Virus record (IMG/VR): IMGVR_UViG_2654587571_000011 | Source of the DNA: a virus | Taxonomy: Duplodnaviria; Heunggongvirae; Uroviricota; Caudoviricetes | Reading direction: 5' to 3' (one strand) | DNA length: 5,360 nucleotides | Part shown: piece after piece, positions 1 to 5,360 of the stretch | Position numbering within the stretch: the stretch's first letter is position 1 | Layout of the letters: each line of letters opens with the position of its first letter | Program-made: the position numbers and the translations under genes | Notes under the pieces: model-generated | Database searches by the model: none | Told to the model about the DNA's origin: nothing | Seen by the model: only the letters and a program-made list of their open reading frames with translations

Positions 1-34
1 GGGGTTTTTTACTGGTTGATACTGTTTTTGTCAT
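1..34 (-). CDS. insE: IS3 OrfA (InsE-like) N-terminus, first 11 codons only (MTKTVSTSKKP), truncated by the window edge
   Basis: Minus-strand ATG at 32-34 followed by ACA AAA ACA GTA TCA ACC AGT AAA AAA CCC, translating to MTKTVSTSKKP, the N-terminus I recall for E. coli IS3 OrfA. Start lies about 65 bp inside the IS end at 99, as expected for IS3. Confidence 0.7.
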   Translation of the reverse strand, partial: MTKTVSTSKKP

Positions 35-99
35 GTGAGTCACCTCTGACTGAGAGTTTACTCACTTAGCCGCGTGTCCACTATTGCTGGGTAAGATCA
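1..99 (-). mobile_element. Left end of an IS3 copy (terminal inverted repeat plus start of orfA); the body of the element continues leftward beyond the window
   Basis: Reverse complement of 1-99 reads TGATCTTACCCAGCAATAGTGGACACGCGGCTAAGTGAGTAAACTCTCAGTCAGAGGTGACTCAC-ATGACAAAAACAGTATCAACCAGTAAAAAACCCC, which matches my memory of the IS3 left end running into the OrfA start. Ends with the TG typical of IS3-family termini. Positions 36-99 are a perfect inverted copy of 5297-5360. Confidence 0.8.
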
Positions 100-115
100 G
101 TTTTATCACAGGATG

Positions 116-550
116 TTACTTTAGATATTGTGCAGACAAATTAGGATCCCATTCATTTTCGTCAAAATCATCAAAGTGATGAATTTGTGATCTCCAGTCT
201 CGATAATCTAAAAATTTCTGGGCGGTTACGCTTATTTTATCAAGCGTGAGTTCATCCTGAATTGAAAGAAGAAGTTCATCAAATTTCATCTCATTAATCT
301 GTTTTGGCATCCAGTGATGCTTCATCAGAATAAGGTGAACCAGAGCTTTTTTCCCATTCAACTGATTATAGGGAGTGCCGAATTTCTTCCGGTGCTCATG
401 TAAGACAAGGTCCAGAAGAGTAAGTAATGTTGCCCTTGATTCAACTTTGCTTATTTCGACTGATGACACTACCCCACTGATTTCAATGCCCCGATACTTT
501 CCAACATTTTCACAGTGGGATTTGTACAGCGTATAGATATTACCGGACAT
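116..550 (-). CDS. Hypothetical protein, 144 aa, no recognisable domain by eye
   Basis: Uninterrupted ORF from ATG (plus 548-550) to TAA (plus 116-118). Good Shine-Dalgarno on the minus strand (AAAAGGAAAAG, AGGA six nt before the ATG; plus coordinates 554-564). No obvious HTH, P-loop or transmembrane segment. Stop codon is 16 bp from the IS3 end. Confidence 0.6.
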   Translation of the reverse strand: MSGNIYTLYKSHCENVGKYRGIEISGVVSSVEISKVESRATLLTLLDLVLHEHRKKFGTPYNQLNGKKALVHLILMKHHWMPKQINEMKFDELLLSIQDELTLDKISVTAQKFLDYRDWRSQIHHFDDFDENEWDPNLSAQYLK

Positions 551-565
551 TTCTTTTCCTTTTGC

Positions 566-617
566 GTTGTTGGGGATAACCAGATTAACCGAATCCTTGT
601 TGTTGGGGAATAACCAG
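566..617. repeat. Two direct copies of an 18/19-bp motif (GTTGTTGGGGATAACCAG at 566-583, GTTGTTGGGGAATAACCAG at 599-617) separated by 15 bp; putative operator or regulator-binding sites
   Basis: Direct reading of the sequence; copies differ by a single inserted A. They sit 16-67 bp upstream of the 144-aa gene start, in the divergent intergenic region facing xis. Confidence 0.6.
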
Positions 618-619
618 GT

Positions 620-1020
620 CCACCTCGCCTGATGTGGCTAAAAGCAGGCACATAACAGCTAAGTATTTTCAACCAGAGAGAATCCTTAGCGTTGTGGTGA
701 ATGCGGCTCAGCGCACGCGGGTTAAGGTTGAGGCTGACAGTCGACCTTCTGTGGATACCCACCCGTCTGGTGTGCAACCTTCGCCAGGCACCGGGAGGCA
801 CCCGGAACCACAACTTTATGCTGTGTGTAGTCTTGACGGTACCAGTTTGTACCCTTGCTTCCGGCTGGTACCATCCTTTTTACAAAACAGAGAAGAGCAT
901 CACCGGACGACGGGCTCATAACCCAATCCATCCAGGCGGCAGTCATCGCAGGTGTTCTTCTCTGTTTTGTGGAGAAACTAACCGACCTTGCAGGGTCGAT
1001 ACGCAGAGACTGAACAGTTA
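620..1020. other. GC-rich block with no credible ORF; candidate structured noncoding RNA or leader/attenuator region upstream of xis
   Basis: Visibly more GC-rich than its neighbours. All six frames are open but the overlapping ORF-track translations (469..813, 634..921, 701..1024, 722..946) are low-complexity R/P/G/S-rich with no RBS, typical of spurious ORFs. Contains local stem-loops, e.g. CCGGG-aggca-CCCGG at 791-805 and the GGTACC-containing hairpin at 838-872. Confidence 0.25.
838..880 (+). terminator. Candidate intrinsic terminator or attenuator-like hairpin followed by a T-run, upstream of xis
   Basis: GGTACCAG (838-845) pairs with CTGGTACC (865-872), then ATCC and TTTTT (876-880). 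The palindrome GGTACC/GTACC occurs three times within 838-872, allowing alternative pairings. The 19-nt loop is long for a classic terminator, hence low confidence. Confidence 0.3.
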
Positions 1021-1043
1021 TTGAAGTAATAAGGTGATCGCAT

Positions 1044-3540: not shown

Positions 3541-3728
3541 ATGGAACCTTATTGAATGTTTATTCAGATATCTATTTGTATGTAAGATATTAATATAAAA
3601 ACGCTCTTATCACAATAGAGTAAATAATTCCTCTCCTGCTTTTACAGCAAGTATCATCTGTAACTTAGGCTCAATTCAGTACATGACGATCCACTCCCTG
3701 AAAATTTGCATTATGAGTTGCTGTCAAC

Positions 3729-3793
3729 GTCCGCTTCTGGCACGGCGCGGACGAGCTAGCGTTGCTGAGGGCTCCTTGTGAGCGAGAAGTAGA
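3729..3793. repeat. Second copy of the GTCCGC...GCGGAC hairpin motif (3729-3752) plus a GAGCGAGAAGTAGAC segment (3779-3793) related to 2458-2481
   Basis: 3729-3752 is GTCCGC-ttctggcacggc-GCGGAC. GAGCGAGAAGTAGAC (3779-3793) matches GAGCGAGAAGCGGAC (2467-2481) at 13 of 15 positions. The two loci flank the AT-rich 309-aa gene in direct orientation. Confidence 0.45.
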
Positions 3794-3921
3794 CGCAACC
3801 AGGGTGGCGTAAGTCCAATTTGCTAAAAATAGAGCATAGAAGCCAGTTCAAATCATGGATGCCCAATCGGCGTATTGGTAGTATTGCGGTACAACGGAAA
3901 ATGCCATTCAAAGGTTGAACT

Positions 3922-5259
3922 ATGGGTACTGTAATTTCTCTTGAAGTGTCAGGAGTGGGGCTAGATTGGAGTAAGAACTCGCTGGGTATAGATCATGGAG
4001 GCCTGTTTCAAAGTGCCGATCATCACGTCAAACCACTAAATGAAGATCAAATAGAGGAAGGAGAGGACTTCGACACTCCTGATGGCATCCTCTGTCGTAC
4101 TGTGTTGCGTAAGCCTTTGGGGCAAGTTGCCTACCGATTGGAATTGTTGGGTTTCACCCTTGAAAATATACGCTATGAGTATGAACTCATGGCTAAAGAT
4201 TCAATTGAATACCAAGAGGAATTTAACGAATCCTGTCCGGAATATGCAAAGCCAATTAGTAACATGATGAGCTTTGATGAATTCGTTAACTTCATCAAGA
4301 GCGTAAATATTAGCGAGCTAAACGATGATTATATTAGCTTAAAAGATAGAATAAAAGAACGCGAGCTTATCAAGGGCCGATTTAATAATGATGAATTATT
4401 AAGCAGGATACCCCAATACGACAATGCCTTTGATAATGCTTGGTCTGAAAAGTCTGCTTTTGGGACTTTAGTTAGCATACTACATCCATACTCAGTGATG
4501 CGACTTTTGGCCGAAAATCCAAATAATCATAATGAATTCGTCACTTGGGATTACGGAGATCTAGTTTCTGCTGGTTATGCGAATATAAAAGATATTCAGG
4601 TAAATGCTCGCAGACGTGACAAGTTCCTGATTGCCACCGAGGGAAGCACCGACTCCAACGTCATCAAATACGCATTGCACCTCTTACGGCCTGATGTAGA
4701 AGATTTTTTTCACTTTATCGACATGAGTGAAGGGTACCCGTTCACTGGTTCAGGAAATCTGGTTAAGTTCGCTGCTGGGCTCGTAAAAATCGACATTCAA
4801 AACTTGATTGTTTTCGTGTTAGATAATGATTGCGAAGGGATTGAGGCATATGAAAAAATCCGCAAACTCGCATTGCCTCACAATATTAGCTGCATTCATC
4901 TTCCTGATCTTCCTCATTTCAATCAATTTCCAGCTATTGGTCCTCACGGCGTTACCTATGAAAACATCAATGGCCGGGCTGTAGCGATTGAATGCTATCT
5001 GGATCTAAGATTTTCTGATTATGATGAAGCGAAAATCCGGTGGTCAAATTACAAAAAGGAAAGTGATGCTTATCAAGGAGCGCTGGAAAATAAAGACTAT
5101 TACACGAAAAAATTCATGAAACTAAAACCAGGAAGTAAGGGTTTTAGCAATTATGATTTTGCCAAACTCGCTATTGTCTTGGATGAATTAATAAAAGCGT
5201 GCTCAAAAATCTCATCAGAGATTAGAAAAAATGAAGTAGATGTTCAATATCCAGACTAA
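3922..5259 (+). CDS. Toprim-like domain protein, 445 aa, with an uncharacterised N-terminal region; putative nuclease
   Basis: ORF from ATG 3922 (RBS AAGG at 3912-3915, five nt spacing) to TAA 5257-5259. C-terminal half carries a Toprim-like motif pair: KFLIATEGSTD (Glu240, nt 4639-4641) and VFVLDNDCEG (Asp301/Asp303, nt 4822-4830). No Walker A/P-loop was found in the first 230 residues, so it is not a full OLD/Gabija-type ATPase-Toprim fusion. Confidence 0.75.
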   Translation: MGTVISLEVSGVGLDWSKNSLGIDHGGLFQSADHHVKPLNEDQIEEGEDFDTPDGILCRTVLRKPLGQVAYRLELLGFTLENIRYEYELMAKDSIEYQEEFNESCPEYAKPISNMMSFDEFVNFIKSVNISELNDDYISLKDRIKERELIKGRFNNDELLSRIPQYDNAFDNAWSEKSAFGTLVSILHPYSVMRLLAENPNNHNEFVTWDYGDLVSAGYANIKDIQVNARRRDKFLIATEGSTDSNVIKYALHLLRPDVEDFFHFIDMSEGYPFTGSGNLVKFAAGLVKIDIQNLIVFVLDNDCEGIEAYEKIRKLALPHNISCIHLPDLPHFNQFPAIGPHGVTYENINGRAVAIECYLDLRFSDYDEAKIRWSNYKKESDAYQGALENKDYYTKKFMKLKPGSKGFSNYDFAKLAIVLDELIKACSKISSEIRKNEVDVQYPD

Positions 5260-5261
5260 AA

Positions 5262-5288
5262 AGGCCGCATGCGCGGCCTGTATGAGTT
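5262..5288 (+). terminator. Candidate rho-independent terminator after the 445-aa gene
   Basis: AGGCCGC (5262-5268), loop ATGC, GCGGCCT (5273-5279): a 7-bp GC-rich stem three nt after the stop codon, followed by GTATGAGTT, which is only moderately T-rich. Confidence 0.45.
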
Positions 5289-5296
5289 AACCGATA

Positions 5297-5360
5297 TGAT
5301 CTTACCCAGCAATAGTGGACACGCGGCTAAGTGAGTAAACTCTCAGTCAGAGGTGACTCA
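5297..5360 (+). mobile_element. Left end of a second IS3 copy (terminal inverted repeat region); the body of the element continues rightward beyond the window
   Basis: 5297-5360 reads TGATCTTACCCAGCAATAGTGGACACGCGGCTAAGTGAGTAAACTCTCAGTCAGAGGTGACTCA, the exact reverse complement of 36-99. The orfA ATG would start at the first base beyond the window. Confidence 0.8.

What the first reader, a model, noticed from the sequence alone, without database searches (positions are those of the whole stretch)
1..5360. Whole segment bracketed by two inverted IS3 copies with left ends facing inward
36-99 and 5297-5360 are perfect reverse complements and each is the left terminus of IS3 (OrfA start MTKTVSTSKKP readable at the left edge). 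The 5.2-kb interior is therefore a composite-transposon-like unit. Homologous recombination between the inverted copies would flip the segment, and the IS pair could mobilise the enclosed int and cargo genes. Both outermost genes end within 16-37 bp of an IS end and are transcribed outward into the IS copies, antisense to the transposase genes. The inner flanking triplets are GTT (100-102) and ATA (5294-5296).
Basis: partly seen in the sequence, partly recalled or inferred. Interest (0 to 1): 0.6.

Follow-up and report, generated by a model that had tools for sequence, protein, structure and literature searches.

The report
Two IS3 insertions in a prophage
The segment is the integrase end of an e14-like E. 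coli prophage that was hit by two separate copies of the common insertion sequence IS3, which is ordinary prophage decay and not a new mobile unit; related strains have already lost the whole segment by recombination with a third IS3 copy.

Summary
Positions 36-99 and 5297-5360 are a perfect 64-nt inverted repeat, cut short only by the window edge, and both ends are identical to the IRL end of canonical IS3.

The composite-transposon reading does not hold. The 5,197-bp interior is native DNA of an e14-like lambdoid prophage integrated at icd. It carries ECs1072, xisE, intE, a 309-aa gene and a HEPN/Toprim gene, and it is continuous with both flanks in at least six IS-free genomes.

Each IS3 has its own 3-bp duplication:
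- **Left copy:** GTT/GTT, seen on one molecule in strain PS1Thumoskin9, which is 100% identical to window 1-5297 but lacks the right IS3.
- **Right copy:** ATA on the inner side in the window, and ATA on the outer side in strains CD45 and 602687.

In CD45 and 602687 a hybrid IS3 with unmatched flanks (GAG/ATA) replaces 19.3 kb, including the whole interior. That is deletion by recombination with a third, directly repeated IS3.

No genome shows the unit elsewhere or inverted.

Separately, the two cargo modules are bounded by a widespread 24-bp palindromic site family that forms co-oriented cassette arrays. I could not match this to anything described.

The parts
1..99 (-). Inner (IRL) end of the left IS3 copy, including the first 11 codons of orfA (34 down to 2).
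   Evidence: Identical to positions 1-99 of the 1,258-bp IS3 of PS1Thumoskin9. That copy is 99.84% identical to K-12 IS3A and is annotated as an IS3 transposase with programmed frameshift.
100..102 (.). GTT, the inner copy of the left IS3's 3-bp target-site duplication.
   Evidence: PS1Thumoskin9 reads ...CACG GTT [IS3] GTT TTATC. The empty site in six other genomes reads ...CAC(A/G) GTT TTATC.
116..550 (-). ECs1072-family phage-associated protein, 144 aa, function unknown.
   Evidence: NCBIfam NF033230, 1.7e-46. PHROG 5286.
566..1013 (+). GC-rich conserved stretch and frameshifted pseudogene (694-1013), probably the remnant of the 5' part of a yfdP/SfIV-gp34-like gene.
   Evidence: Annotated as a pseudogene by PGAP. 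More than 93% conserved in many lambdoid phages and plasmids. An intact ORF lies at this place in SfIV. Weak STnc100 hit of 31.8 bits, below the gathering score of 47. Fold z-score -4.9.
1044..1289 (+). xisE excisionase, 81 aa.
   Evidence: Pfam Exc, 6e-12. PGAP annotation.
1270..2397 (+). intE, a lambda-type tyrosine integrase of 375 aa.
   Evidence: Pfam Arm-DNA-bind_1 5e-37 and Phage_integrase 2e-17. PGAP annotation.
2459..2482 (+). 24-bp palindromic 'class A' site GTCCGCTTAGAGCGAGAAGCGGAC, the left boundary of the cargo region.
   Evidence: Homology to an unrelated island in E. coli PSJ-22 starts at 2458. Homology to other e14-like prophages ends at 2482-2485. The same site type follows intE in TUM1880 and K-12 e14.
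2611..3540 (-). 309-aa protein of unknown function whose N-terminal stretch (residues 8-27, AVMAALVSALVTVLLFFIKG) looks hydrophobic by eye. This is cargo cassette 1.
   Evidence: ORF. No Pfam, NCBIfam, PADLOC or PDB match. No transmembrane prediction was run.
3729..3794 (+). Composite boundary site between the two cargo cassettes: class B palindrome GTCCGCTTCTGGCACGGCGCGGAC, 17 nt, then a degenerate class A palindrome.
   Evidence: Homology to Mixta sp. BE291 starts at 3729. Homology to the K. aerogenes plasmid starts at 3727 by default blastn and at 3688 with blastn -task blastn.
3922..5259 (+). HEPN/Toprim-associated protein, 445 aa. This is cargo cassette 2 and a probable nuclease-type conflict or defence gene.
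   Evidence: Pfam HEPN_Toprim_N, 1.7e-48. Weak Toprim_2 match in the C-terminal half. Lies beside a restriction endonuclease and relBE on a K. aerogenes plasmid. No PADLOC hit.
5262..5279 (-). GC-rich hairpin that scores as an intrinsic terminator on the minus strand, for the 59-aa ORF now cut off by the right IS3.
5287..5296 (-). Orphaned last 10 nt (stop codon plus 2.3 codons) of a 59-aa ORF that the right IS3 split.
   Evidence: The ORF is annotated in the IS-free genomes. Reconstruction.
5294..5296 (.). ATA, the inner copy of the right IS3's 3-bp target-site duplication.
   Evidence: The empty site reads CCG ATA TTGCG. The outer copy, IRR-ATA-TTGCG, is present in CD45 and 602687.
5297..5360 (+). 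Inner (IRL) end of the right IS3 copy, cut by the window edge 1 nt before the orfA ATG.
   Evidence: Identical to IS3 positions 1-64.

Best explanation
The window is the integrase-proximal arm of an e14-like lambdoid prophage integrated in icd. Two copies of canonical IS3 inserted into it independently by ordinary transposition, each making its own 3-bp duplication.

The left copy (here IS3#1) landed between a small ORF and the ECs1072 gene. The right copy (IS3_R) landed three codons before the stop of a 59-aa ORF downstream of the HEPN/Toprim gene. The interior was never delivered by the IS pair. It is the ancestral content of that prophage arm: xis/int plus two cargo cassettes in the int-attL hotspot.

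The same prophage lineage carries a third IS3 (IS3#2) between the lysis and packaging genes, in direct orientation to IS3_R. Homologous recombination between those two copies has deleted about 20 kb, including the whole window interior, in related strains. The window therefore shows an intermediate stage of IS-driven prophage decay.

Shown: the identity of the IS ends, the native context of the interior, the four junction sequences, and the deletion derivative.

Inferred:
- The window's own copies are full length.
- IS3#2 is present in the source genome.
- The order of events was IS3#1, then IS3_R, then the deletion.
- The window is a whole short-read contig that breaks at IS3 repeats.
For: - **Nearest relative.** Window 1-5297 has 0 mismatches to PS1Thumoskin9, where it lies between prophage early genes and icd. 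That strain has a full IS3 on the left and no IS3 on the right.
- **IS-free genomes.** TUM9868 and at least five other assemblies carry the same 5,197-bp interior (5,189 bp in L008) with uninterrupted flanks at both sites.
- **Left IS3.** It is 1,258 bp with GTT on both sides.
- **Right outer junction, predicted then found.** The ORF predicted for a simple right-hand insertion with an ATA duplication (68 aa...GHRNIDPTHVIWTQA) exists exactly in public data on 72 contigs. Variants for 2-bp or 4-bp duplications do not.
- **Right outer junction in complete genomes.** IRR-ATA-TTGCGATGG is 100% matched in CD45 and 602687.
- **Deletion derivative.** In CD45 and 602687 the IS3 has unmatched flanks, GAG and ATA. 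Its IRL flank is the junction of IS3#2, which in PS1Thumoskin9 has its own CTC/CTC (= GAG) duplication. The loci equal PS1Thumoskin9 minus 19,293 bp.
- **Lineage.** Only 3 of 5,426 complete genomes share the IS3#2 junction, 1 has the left junction and 0 have the right inner junction.
- **Published behaviour of IS copies.** Recombination between direct IS copies deletes and leaves one recombinant copy. Recombination between inverted copies inverts and is invisible to short reads (PMC5009759; PMC4173774).
Against: - The window's own outer flanks are not available. The right inner junction was found in no public collection I could search.
- The two halves of the right-hand duplication therefore come from different genomes.
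- Junction sequences cannot tell a simple insertion from the inverted isomer, so the present orientation of the segment in the source genome is unknown.
- Whether the source genome carries IS3#2 is inferred only.
Confidence: 0.88

Rival explanations
1. The IS3 pair and the interior form a composite transposon that arrived here, or moves, as one 7.7-kb unit using the two outer IRR ends.
For: Two IS3 copies do bracket the segment. IS3-family elements can form composite transposons, for example the IS2-like element of B. thailandensis (PMC6350997).
Against: - The interior is continuous with both outer flanks in IS-free genomes.
- The outer triplets differ from each other (GTT versus ATA), and each equals its own inner triplet.
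- PS1Thumoskin9 has the left copy only.
- Only 2 of 20,395 E. coli records hold 80% or more of the window, both at icd, and there are no such plasmid or phage records.
- The outer ends would both be IRR, and the published IS3-family example uses direct repeats.
Confidence: 0.03
2. The segment is an invertible switch. RecA-dependent recombination between the inverted IS3 copies flips xis/int and the cargo relative to the rest of the prophage, with a functional consequence.
For: Inverted repeats of 1.26 kb lie 5.2 kb apart, and IS-mediated inversions are documented in E. coli. In this lineage the right-hand copy (IS3_R) has recombined with a third copy, IS3#2.
Against: - No complete genome carries both copies, so no isomer has been seen.
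- Both isomers give the same window sequence.
- The pair is rare and recent, with no sign of selection.
- The only outcome seen in relatives is deletion.
Confidence: 0.06
3. The right-hand IS3 end is an assembly artefact or chimera, and the source genome equals PS1Thumoskin9.
For: The right inner junction is absent from every collection searched. The rest of the window is identical to a genome that lacks this IS.
Against: - The complementary outer junction, at exactly this site and with the matching ATA, exists in two complete genomes and 72 contigs.
- The native and IS3 sequences share only 1 nt at the joint, too little for a k-mer mis-join.
Confidence: 0.03

Closest known systems
IS3 (IS3 family, IS3 group) of E. 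coli K-12
   Same: Both window ends are identical to the IRL end. The sister copy is 1,258 bp and 99.84% identical to IS3A, with orfA/orfB and a programmed frameshift and 3-bp duplications.
   Different: Nothing in the sequence differs. Only 99 and 64 nt of the two copies lie inside the window.
Composite transposons: Tn10 and Tn5 with inverted IS (own knowledge), and the IS2-like composite transposon of Burkholderia thailandensis (PMC6350997)
   Same: Two copies of one IS bracket passenger genes.
   Different: Each IS here has its own duplication, the passenger DNA is in its ancestral place, and the unit has never been seen elsewhere. The B. thailandensis element has direct IS copies and a demonstrated circle.
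Cryptic prophage e14 of E. coli K-12
   Same: Integrated in icd with an icd' remnant, intE/xisE next to a variable cargo region, and pinE-mcrA at the far end (PMC6379469).
   Different: The cargo here is a 309-aa gene plus HEPN/Toprim instead of lit-ymfE-ymfD. This prophage keeps lambdoid early, lysis and head genes and carries three IS3 copies plus another IS3-family element.
IS-mediated deletions and inversions by homologous recombination (E. coli mutation-accumulation lines and the long-term evolution experiment)
   Same: CD45 and 602687 show the textbook signature of one recombinant IS with unmatched flanking triplets and loss of the DNA between two direct copies.
   Different: Nothing differs in mechanism. 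IS3 gave no recombination events in the mutation-accumulation lines, so an IS3 example in natural isolates is a small addition.
IScream phages (prophages sandwiched by IS30; PMC12823448)
   Same: Phage DNA flanked by two IS copies, compared by the authors to composite transposons.
   Different: There the IS30 copies sit at the ends of the whole phage genome, are conserved across a phage group and replace the integrase. Here IS3 copies lie inside a prophage that has its own integrase, and they are strain-specific.
Integron attC (59-base element) cassette arrays. This applies only to the boundary sites noticed in the cargo region (own knowledge of attC architecture).
   Same: Co-oriented arrays of short cassettes. 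Each boundary is a pair of 'simple sites' made of inverted 7-10-bp arms. In the alphaproteobacterial arrays the ORFs mostly end just before the site.
   Different: The arms are GTCCGCT/AGCGGAC, not RYYYAAC/GTTRRRY. No IntI-type integrase is adjacent. Enterobacterial cassettes hold genes on both strands. No recombination has been shown.

Membership tests
IS3 | Terminal inverted repeats TG...CA of about 39 bp with the IS3 sequence | tested here: met
   Window ends are identical to IRL positions 1-99 and 1-64 of a full copy. IRL and IRR match at 28 of the first 40 positions. The copy is 99.84% identical to K-12 IS3A.
IS3 | orfA and orfB with a programmed -1 frameshift, total length about 1,258 bp | tested here: inconclusive
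   Met in the sister copies in PS1Thumoskin9, CD45 and 602687. The window itself holds only 11 codons of one orfA.
IS3 | 3-bp target-site duplication | tested here: met
   GTT/GTT on one molecule. ATA on the inner side in the window and on the outer side in CD45 and 602687. The exact fusion ORF exists only for the 3-bp case.
Composite transposon | Two copies of the same IS flank the passenger DNA | tested here: met
Composite transposon | One target duplication at the two outer ends of the whole unit | tested here: not met
   The outer triplets are GTT (PS1Thumoskin9) and ATA (CD45, 602687). They differ from each other, and each equals its own IS's inner triplet.
Composite transposon | Passenger DNA is foreign to the insertion locus | tested here: not met
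   The interior is continuous with both flanks in L002-L006 and L008.
Composite transposon | The unit is found in more than one genomic context | tested here: not met
   Only 2 of 20,395 E. coli records hold 80% or more of the window, both at icd. None exist among 72,556 plasmids or 50,697 phages.
Composite transposon | Demonstrated joint transposition | not testable with these tools
   Needs a circle-junction PCR or a mating-out assay.
IS-bounded invertible segment | Both orientations observed | not testable with these tools
   No complete genome carries both IS copies. Inversion between long IS repeats leaves no junction signal (PMC5009759).
e14-like prophage | Integration in the 3' end of icd with a duplicated icd' remnant | tested here: met
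   icd lies beside the segment and an icd fragment lies about 33.5 kb away after pinE-mcrA in PS1Thumoskin9. Compare K-12.
e14-like prophage | Lambda-type Int with an arm-binding domain, plus Xis | tested here: met
   Pfam Arm-DNA-bind_1, Phage_integrase and Exc.
Integron cassette array (for the boundary sites) | attC sites with R'' RYYYAAC and R' GTTRRRY, and an intI gene | tested here: not met
   The sites are GTCCGCT-N10-AGCGGAC. A small tyrosine recombinase occurs in only 4 of 120 loci.

The most novel reading that the evidence does not exclude
This reading is not the IS3 pair. The cargo half of the segment (2459 to about 5650) may consist of two gene cassettes of an undescribed, integron-like cassette system. 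The boundaries are pairs of 24-28-bp palindromes, GTCCGCTyCTGGCAC-NNN-GCGGAC followed by GTCCGCTnTGAGCGAgAAGCGGAC. These form co-oriented arrays in Enterobacterales and Alphaproteobacteria and mark the exact breakpoints where the HEPN/Toprim cassette is shared between a prophage, a genomic island, a plasmid and a Mixta genome. If so, the int-attL hotspot of e14-like prophages would be supplied by site-specific cassette exchange through an unknown recombinase. For the IS3 pair itself, the most novel reading left open is an active invertible or transposable int-plus-defence cassette, at about 5%.
Probability: 0.25. Interest if true: 0.7.

Novelty: already known. Interest (0 to 1): 0.13.

Why it matters
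As given, the finding matters little. IS insertions into prophages, and IS-mediated deletion of prophage DNA, are well known.

It does give a clean three-stage natural series:
- IS-free prophage.
- One, then two, IS3 insertions in the integrase arm.
- A 20-kb deletion through a third copy.

The series shows how a prophage loses its integration module and two probable defence genes. It is also a caution: a short contig ending in the same IS end on both sides says nothing about joint mobility.

The boundary sites noticed in the cargo region could matter more. If they are recombination sites, they would explain how accessory and defence genes move between prophage hotspots, islands and plasmids.

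Tried and rejected
**Looking for the source contig or any sequence with the right inner junction**
- Exact-pattern scans of GTDB representative genomes, JGI metagenomes and IMG/VR found nothing.
- Megablast of both junctions against 5,426 complete E. coli genomes found the right junction in none and the left junction in one.
- A look-up of contigs encoding the HEPN/Toprim protein returned only long contigs without the right IS3.

**Considered and rejected**
- The right IS3 sits at a module boundary. Homology to other elements continues 64-345 nt past the insertion site.
- The GC-rich stretch 566-1013 is a known RNA family. It gives only a sub-threshold STnc100 hit, and an intact ORF lies at the same place in SfIV.

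**Searches that found nothing**
- PADLOC, NCBIfam, PHROGs and PDB sequence searches on the two cargo proteins.
- Literature searches for 'HEPN Toprim' and for the exact site sequences found no papers.
- Rfam on three array loci did not hit the sites.
- No gene family is consistently next to the sites.

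
Full report
**Observation.** The window holds a perfect 64-nt inverted repeat, 36-99 against 5297-5360. By my own estimate chance would give about 4e-32 such repeats in 5.4 kb. The repeat is limited only by the right window edge. The reverse complement of 1-99 and the sequence 5297-5360 are identical to positions 1-99 and 1-64 of a 1,258-bp IS3 annotated in E. coli PS1Thumoskin9. That copy is 99.84% identical to IS3A of K-12 over 1,255 nt.

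One stated detail is wrong. The ECs1072 gene and the left transposase are both on the minus strand, and the HEPN/Toprim gene and the right orfA are both on the plus strand. Both flanking genes therefore read into the IS copies in the sense direction. The hairpin at 5262-5279 is terminator-like only on the minus strand.

**What the interior is.** Window 1-5297 matches the PS1Thumoskin9 chromosome with no mismatch. There it lies inside a roughly 33.5-kb e14-like lambdoid prophage integrated in icd. Going away from icd, the order is:
- a 59-aa ORF, the HEPN/Toprim gene, a 309-aa ORF, intE and xisE;
- a pseudogene, the ECs1072 gene and an IS3;
- then cI/cro, replication genes, Q, lysis, packaging and head genes;
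- another IS3-family element in place of the tail genes, then pinE, mcrA and an icd' remnant.

Pfam confirms a lambda-type Int with an arm-binding domain, an excisionase, and a HEPN_Toprim_N protein. The same 5,197-bp interior, with neither IS, lies in the same place in TUM9868 (12 substitutions) and in at least four further assemblies, plus one (L008) where it is 5,189 bp. The joints there are uninterrupted...CAC(A/G)|GTTTTATC and ...CCGATA|TTGCGATGG. The interior is therefore ancestral prophage DNA and both IS3 copies are later arrivals.

**The left IS3.** In PS1Thumoskin9 it is a complete copy flanked by GTT on both sides. This junction occurs in 1 of 5,426 complete genomes. The small ORF it truncates (55 aa) is on 9 public contigs.

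**The right IS3.** PS1Thumoskin9 has no IS here, and the inner junction was found in no collection I could search. I therefore predicted the outer junction. A simple insertion with an ATA duplication would fuse the 59-aa ORF to the IRR end and give a 68-aa product ending ...GHRNIDPTHVIWTQA.
- That exact protein exists on 72 contigs, while the products expected for 2-bp or 4-bp duplications do not.
- The corresponding DNA, IRR-ATA-TTGCGATGG, is matched 100% over 223 nt in two complete genomes, CD45 and 602687.
- The inner ATA in the window and the outer ATA in these genomes together form a 3-bp duplication at one site. The IS orientation is the same as in the window.

**What happened next in relatives.** In CD45 and 602687 the IRL side of that IS3 does not abut HEPN/Toprim. 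It abuts a small ORF, HNH and terminase genes. PS1Thumoskin9 has a third canonical IS3 at exactly that place, with its own CTC/CTC (= GAG) duplication, in direct orientation to the right-hand copy. The CD45 and 602687 loci equal the PS1Thumoskin9 sequence up to the end of that third IS3, joined directly to ATA-TTGCG. Identity is 99.97-100%, and 19,293 bp are missing, covering the lysis genes, the early region, the left IS3 and the entire window interior. The single remaining IS3 has unmatched flanks, GAG and ATA. This is the signature of homologous recombination between two direct IS copies (PMC5009759). Only these three complete genomes share the third IS3's junction.

The window therefore represents the intermediate state that carries both the left and the right copy. 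A contig that starts and ends inside IS3 is what a short-read assembly of such a genome would give. That last point is inference.

**Verdict on the interpretation.** The architecture is real: two inverted IS3 copies with IRL ends facing inward.
- Each IS has its own duplication.
- The outer triplets differ from each other.
- The interior is native to the site.
- The unit occurs nowhere else among 20,395 E. coli records, 72,556 plasmids or 50,697 phages.

Inversion between the two copies remains possible in principle but cannot be assessed. No complete genome has both copies, and both isomers, as well as a replicative-inversion origin, give the same four junction sequences and the same window. 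Joint transposition would need two IRR ends. The documented IS3-family composite element uses direct copies (PMC6350997). The only outcome seen in nature for this segment is its loss. I also infer that the left IS3 lies between the prophage's early region and xis/int and may be polar on their expression.

**Cargo.** The 309-aa protein has no family, defence-model or structure match; no transmembrane prediction was run, and I only note that residues 8-27 look hydrophobic by eye. The 445-aa protein has the HEPN_Toprim_N domain and a weak Toprim match, with no PADLOC or PDB match. Other e14-like prophages carry lit-ymfE-ymfD, or other genes, at the same place between intE and icd. This region is therefore a variable cargo hotspot.

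**Noticed in passing: the cargo boundaries.** I could not explain the following.
- Homology of the cargo to an unrelated island in E. coli PSJ-22 starts at 2458. Homology to a K. aerogenes plasmid and to Mixta sp. BE291 spans 3688/3727/3729 (by blast setting) to window-equivalent 5641.
- These breakpoints fall on 24-bp palindromes. These are GTCCGCTTAGAGCGAGAAGCGGAC at 2459, GTCCGCTTCTGGCACGGCGCGGAC at 3729 followed by a degenerate second palindrome, and GTCCGCTCCTGGCAC... just outside the window.
These are mostly Enterobacterales and Alphaproteobacteria, against less than one hit expected by chance.
- Fifty of those loci hold two or more sites, and 71 of 77 adjacent pairs are co-oriented (p = 3e-15). 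Some are regular arrays of 0.6-1.8-kb units.
- The gene content is very diverse.
- In E. coli TUM1880 the intE-icd interval is such an array of three units.
- The architecture recalls integron attC sites, but the sequence does not. No recombinase is consistently adjacent, there is no Rfam family, and no paper contains the sequences.
- Whether this is a recombination system, and whether it has been described under another name, remains open.

**Scores.** The finding as given is ordinary and already explained by known biology. I score interest at 0.13 and novelty as already known.

Noticed in passing
window 2459-2482 and 3729-3794; third site just outside the window (L002 17529-17552); loci L018-L140: The cargo modules are bounded by a family of 24-28-bp palindromes, GTCCGCTyCTGGCAC-NNN-GCGGAC paired with GTCCGCTnTGAGCGAgAAGCGGAC. 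It marks the breakpoints of the HEPN/Toprim cassette in four different elements. The architecture is integron-like, the sequence is not attC-like, no recombinase was identified, and there is no Rfam family or literature match.
   Followed up: partly
window 2611-3540 (-) and 3922-5259 (+): Two uncharacterised cargo genes sit in the int-attL hotspot, where K-12 e14 carries lit. One is a 309-aa protein with no family match. The other is a HEPN/Toprim-associated protein that lies beside a restriction endonuclease and relBE on a K. aerogenes plasmid. They are probable defence genes but are absent from PADLOC 2.0.
   Followed up: partly
window 566-1013: A GC-rich stretch (54% GC in the STnc100-matched part, 661-884) is conserved at more than 93% in many lambdoid phages and phage-plasmids. 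It has a sub-threshold STnc100 hit at 661-884 (31.8 bits) and a strong predicted fold (z -4.9) with an 18-bp hairpin at 882-899/953-970. It is annotated as a frameshifted pseudogene, and an intact ORF (gp34) lies at the equivalent place in SfIV. It is probably a remnant left when yfdP-yfdQ-yfdR-like genes were lost.
   Followed up: partly
L016 3868-5125 and 13576-14753 (PS1Thumoskin9); L014/L015 1225-2402: The same prophage carries a third canonical IS3 between the lysis and packaging genes. A different IS3-family element has replaced the tail genes next to a truncated tail-terminator gene. The prophage is therefore already defective in all three related strains.
   Followed up: partly
L139 9359-13450 (E. 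coli TUM1880): The intE-icd interval of this e14-like prophage holds three hypothetical genes, an IS1 remnant and an ISVsa5, arranged as three units separated by the palindromic site pairs.
   Followed up: no
L012 339-6070 (E. coli PSJ-22, next to hipA): The island that shares the 309-aa and HEPN/Toprim cassettes starts with two adjacent tyrosine-integrase genes, then a 788-aa and a 144-aa hypothetical protein. This conserved-looking mobility module was not analysed further.
   Followed up: no
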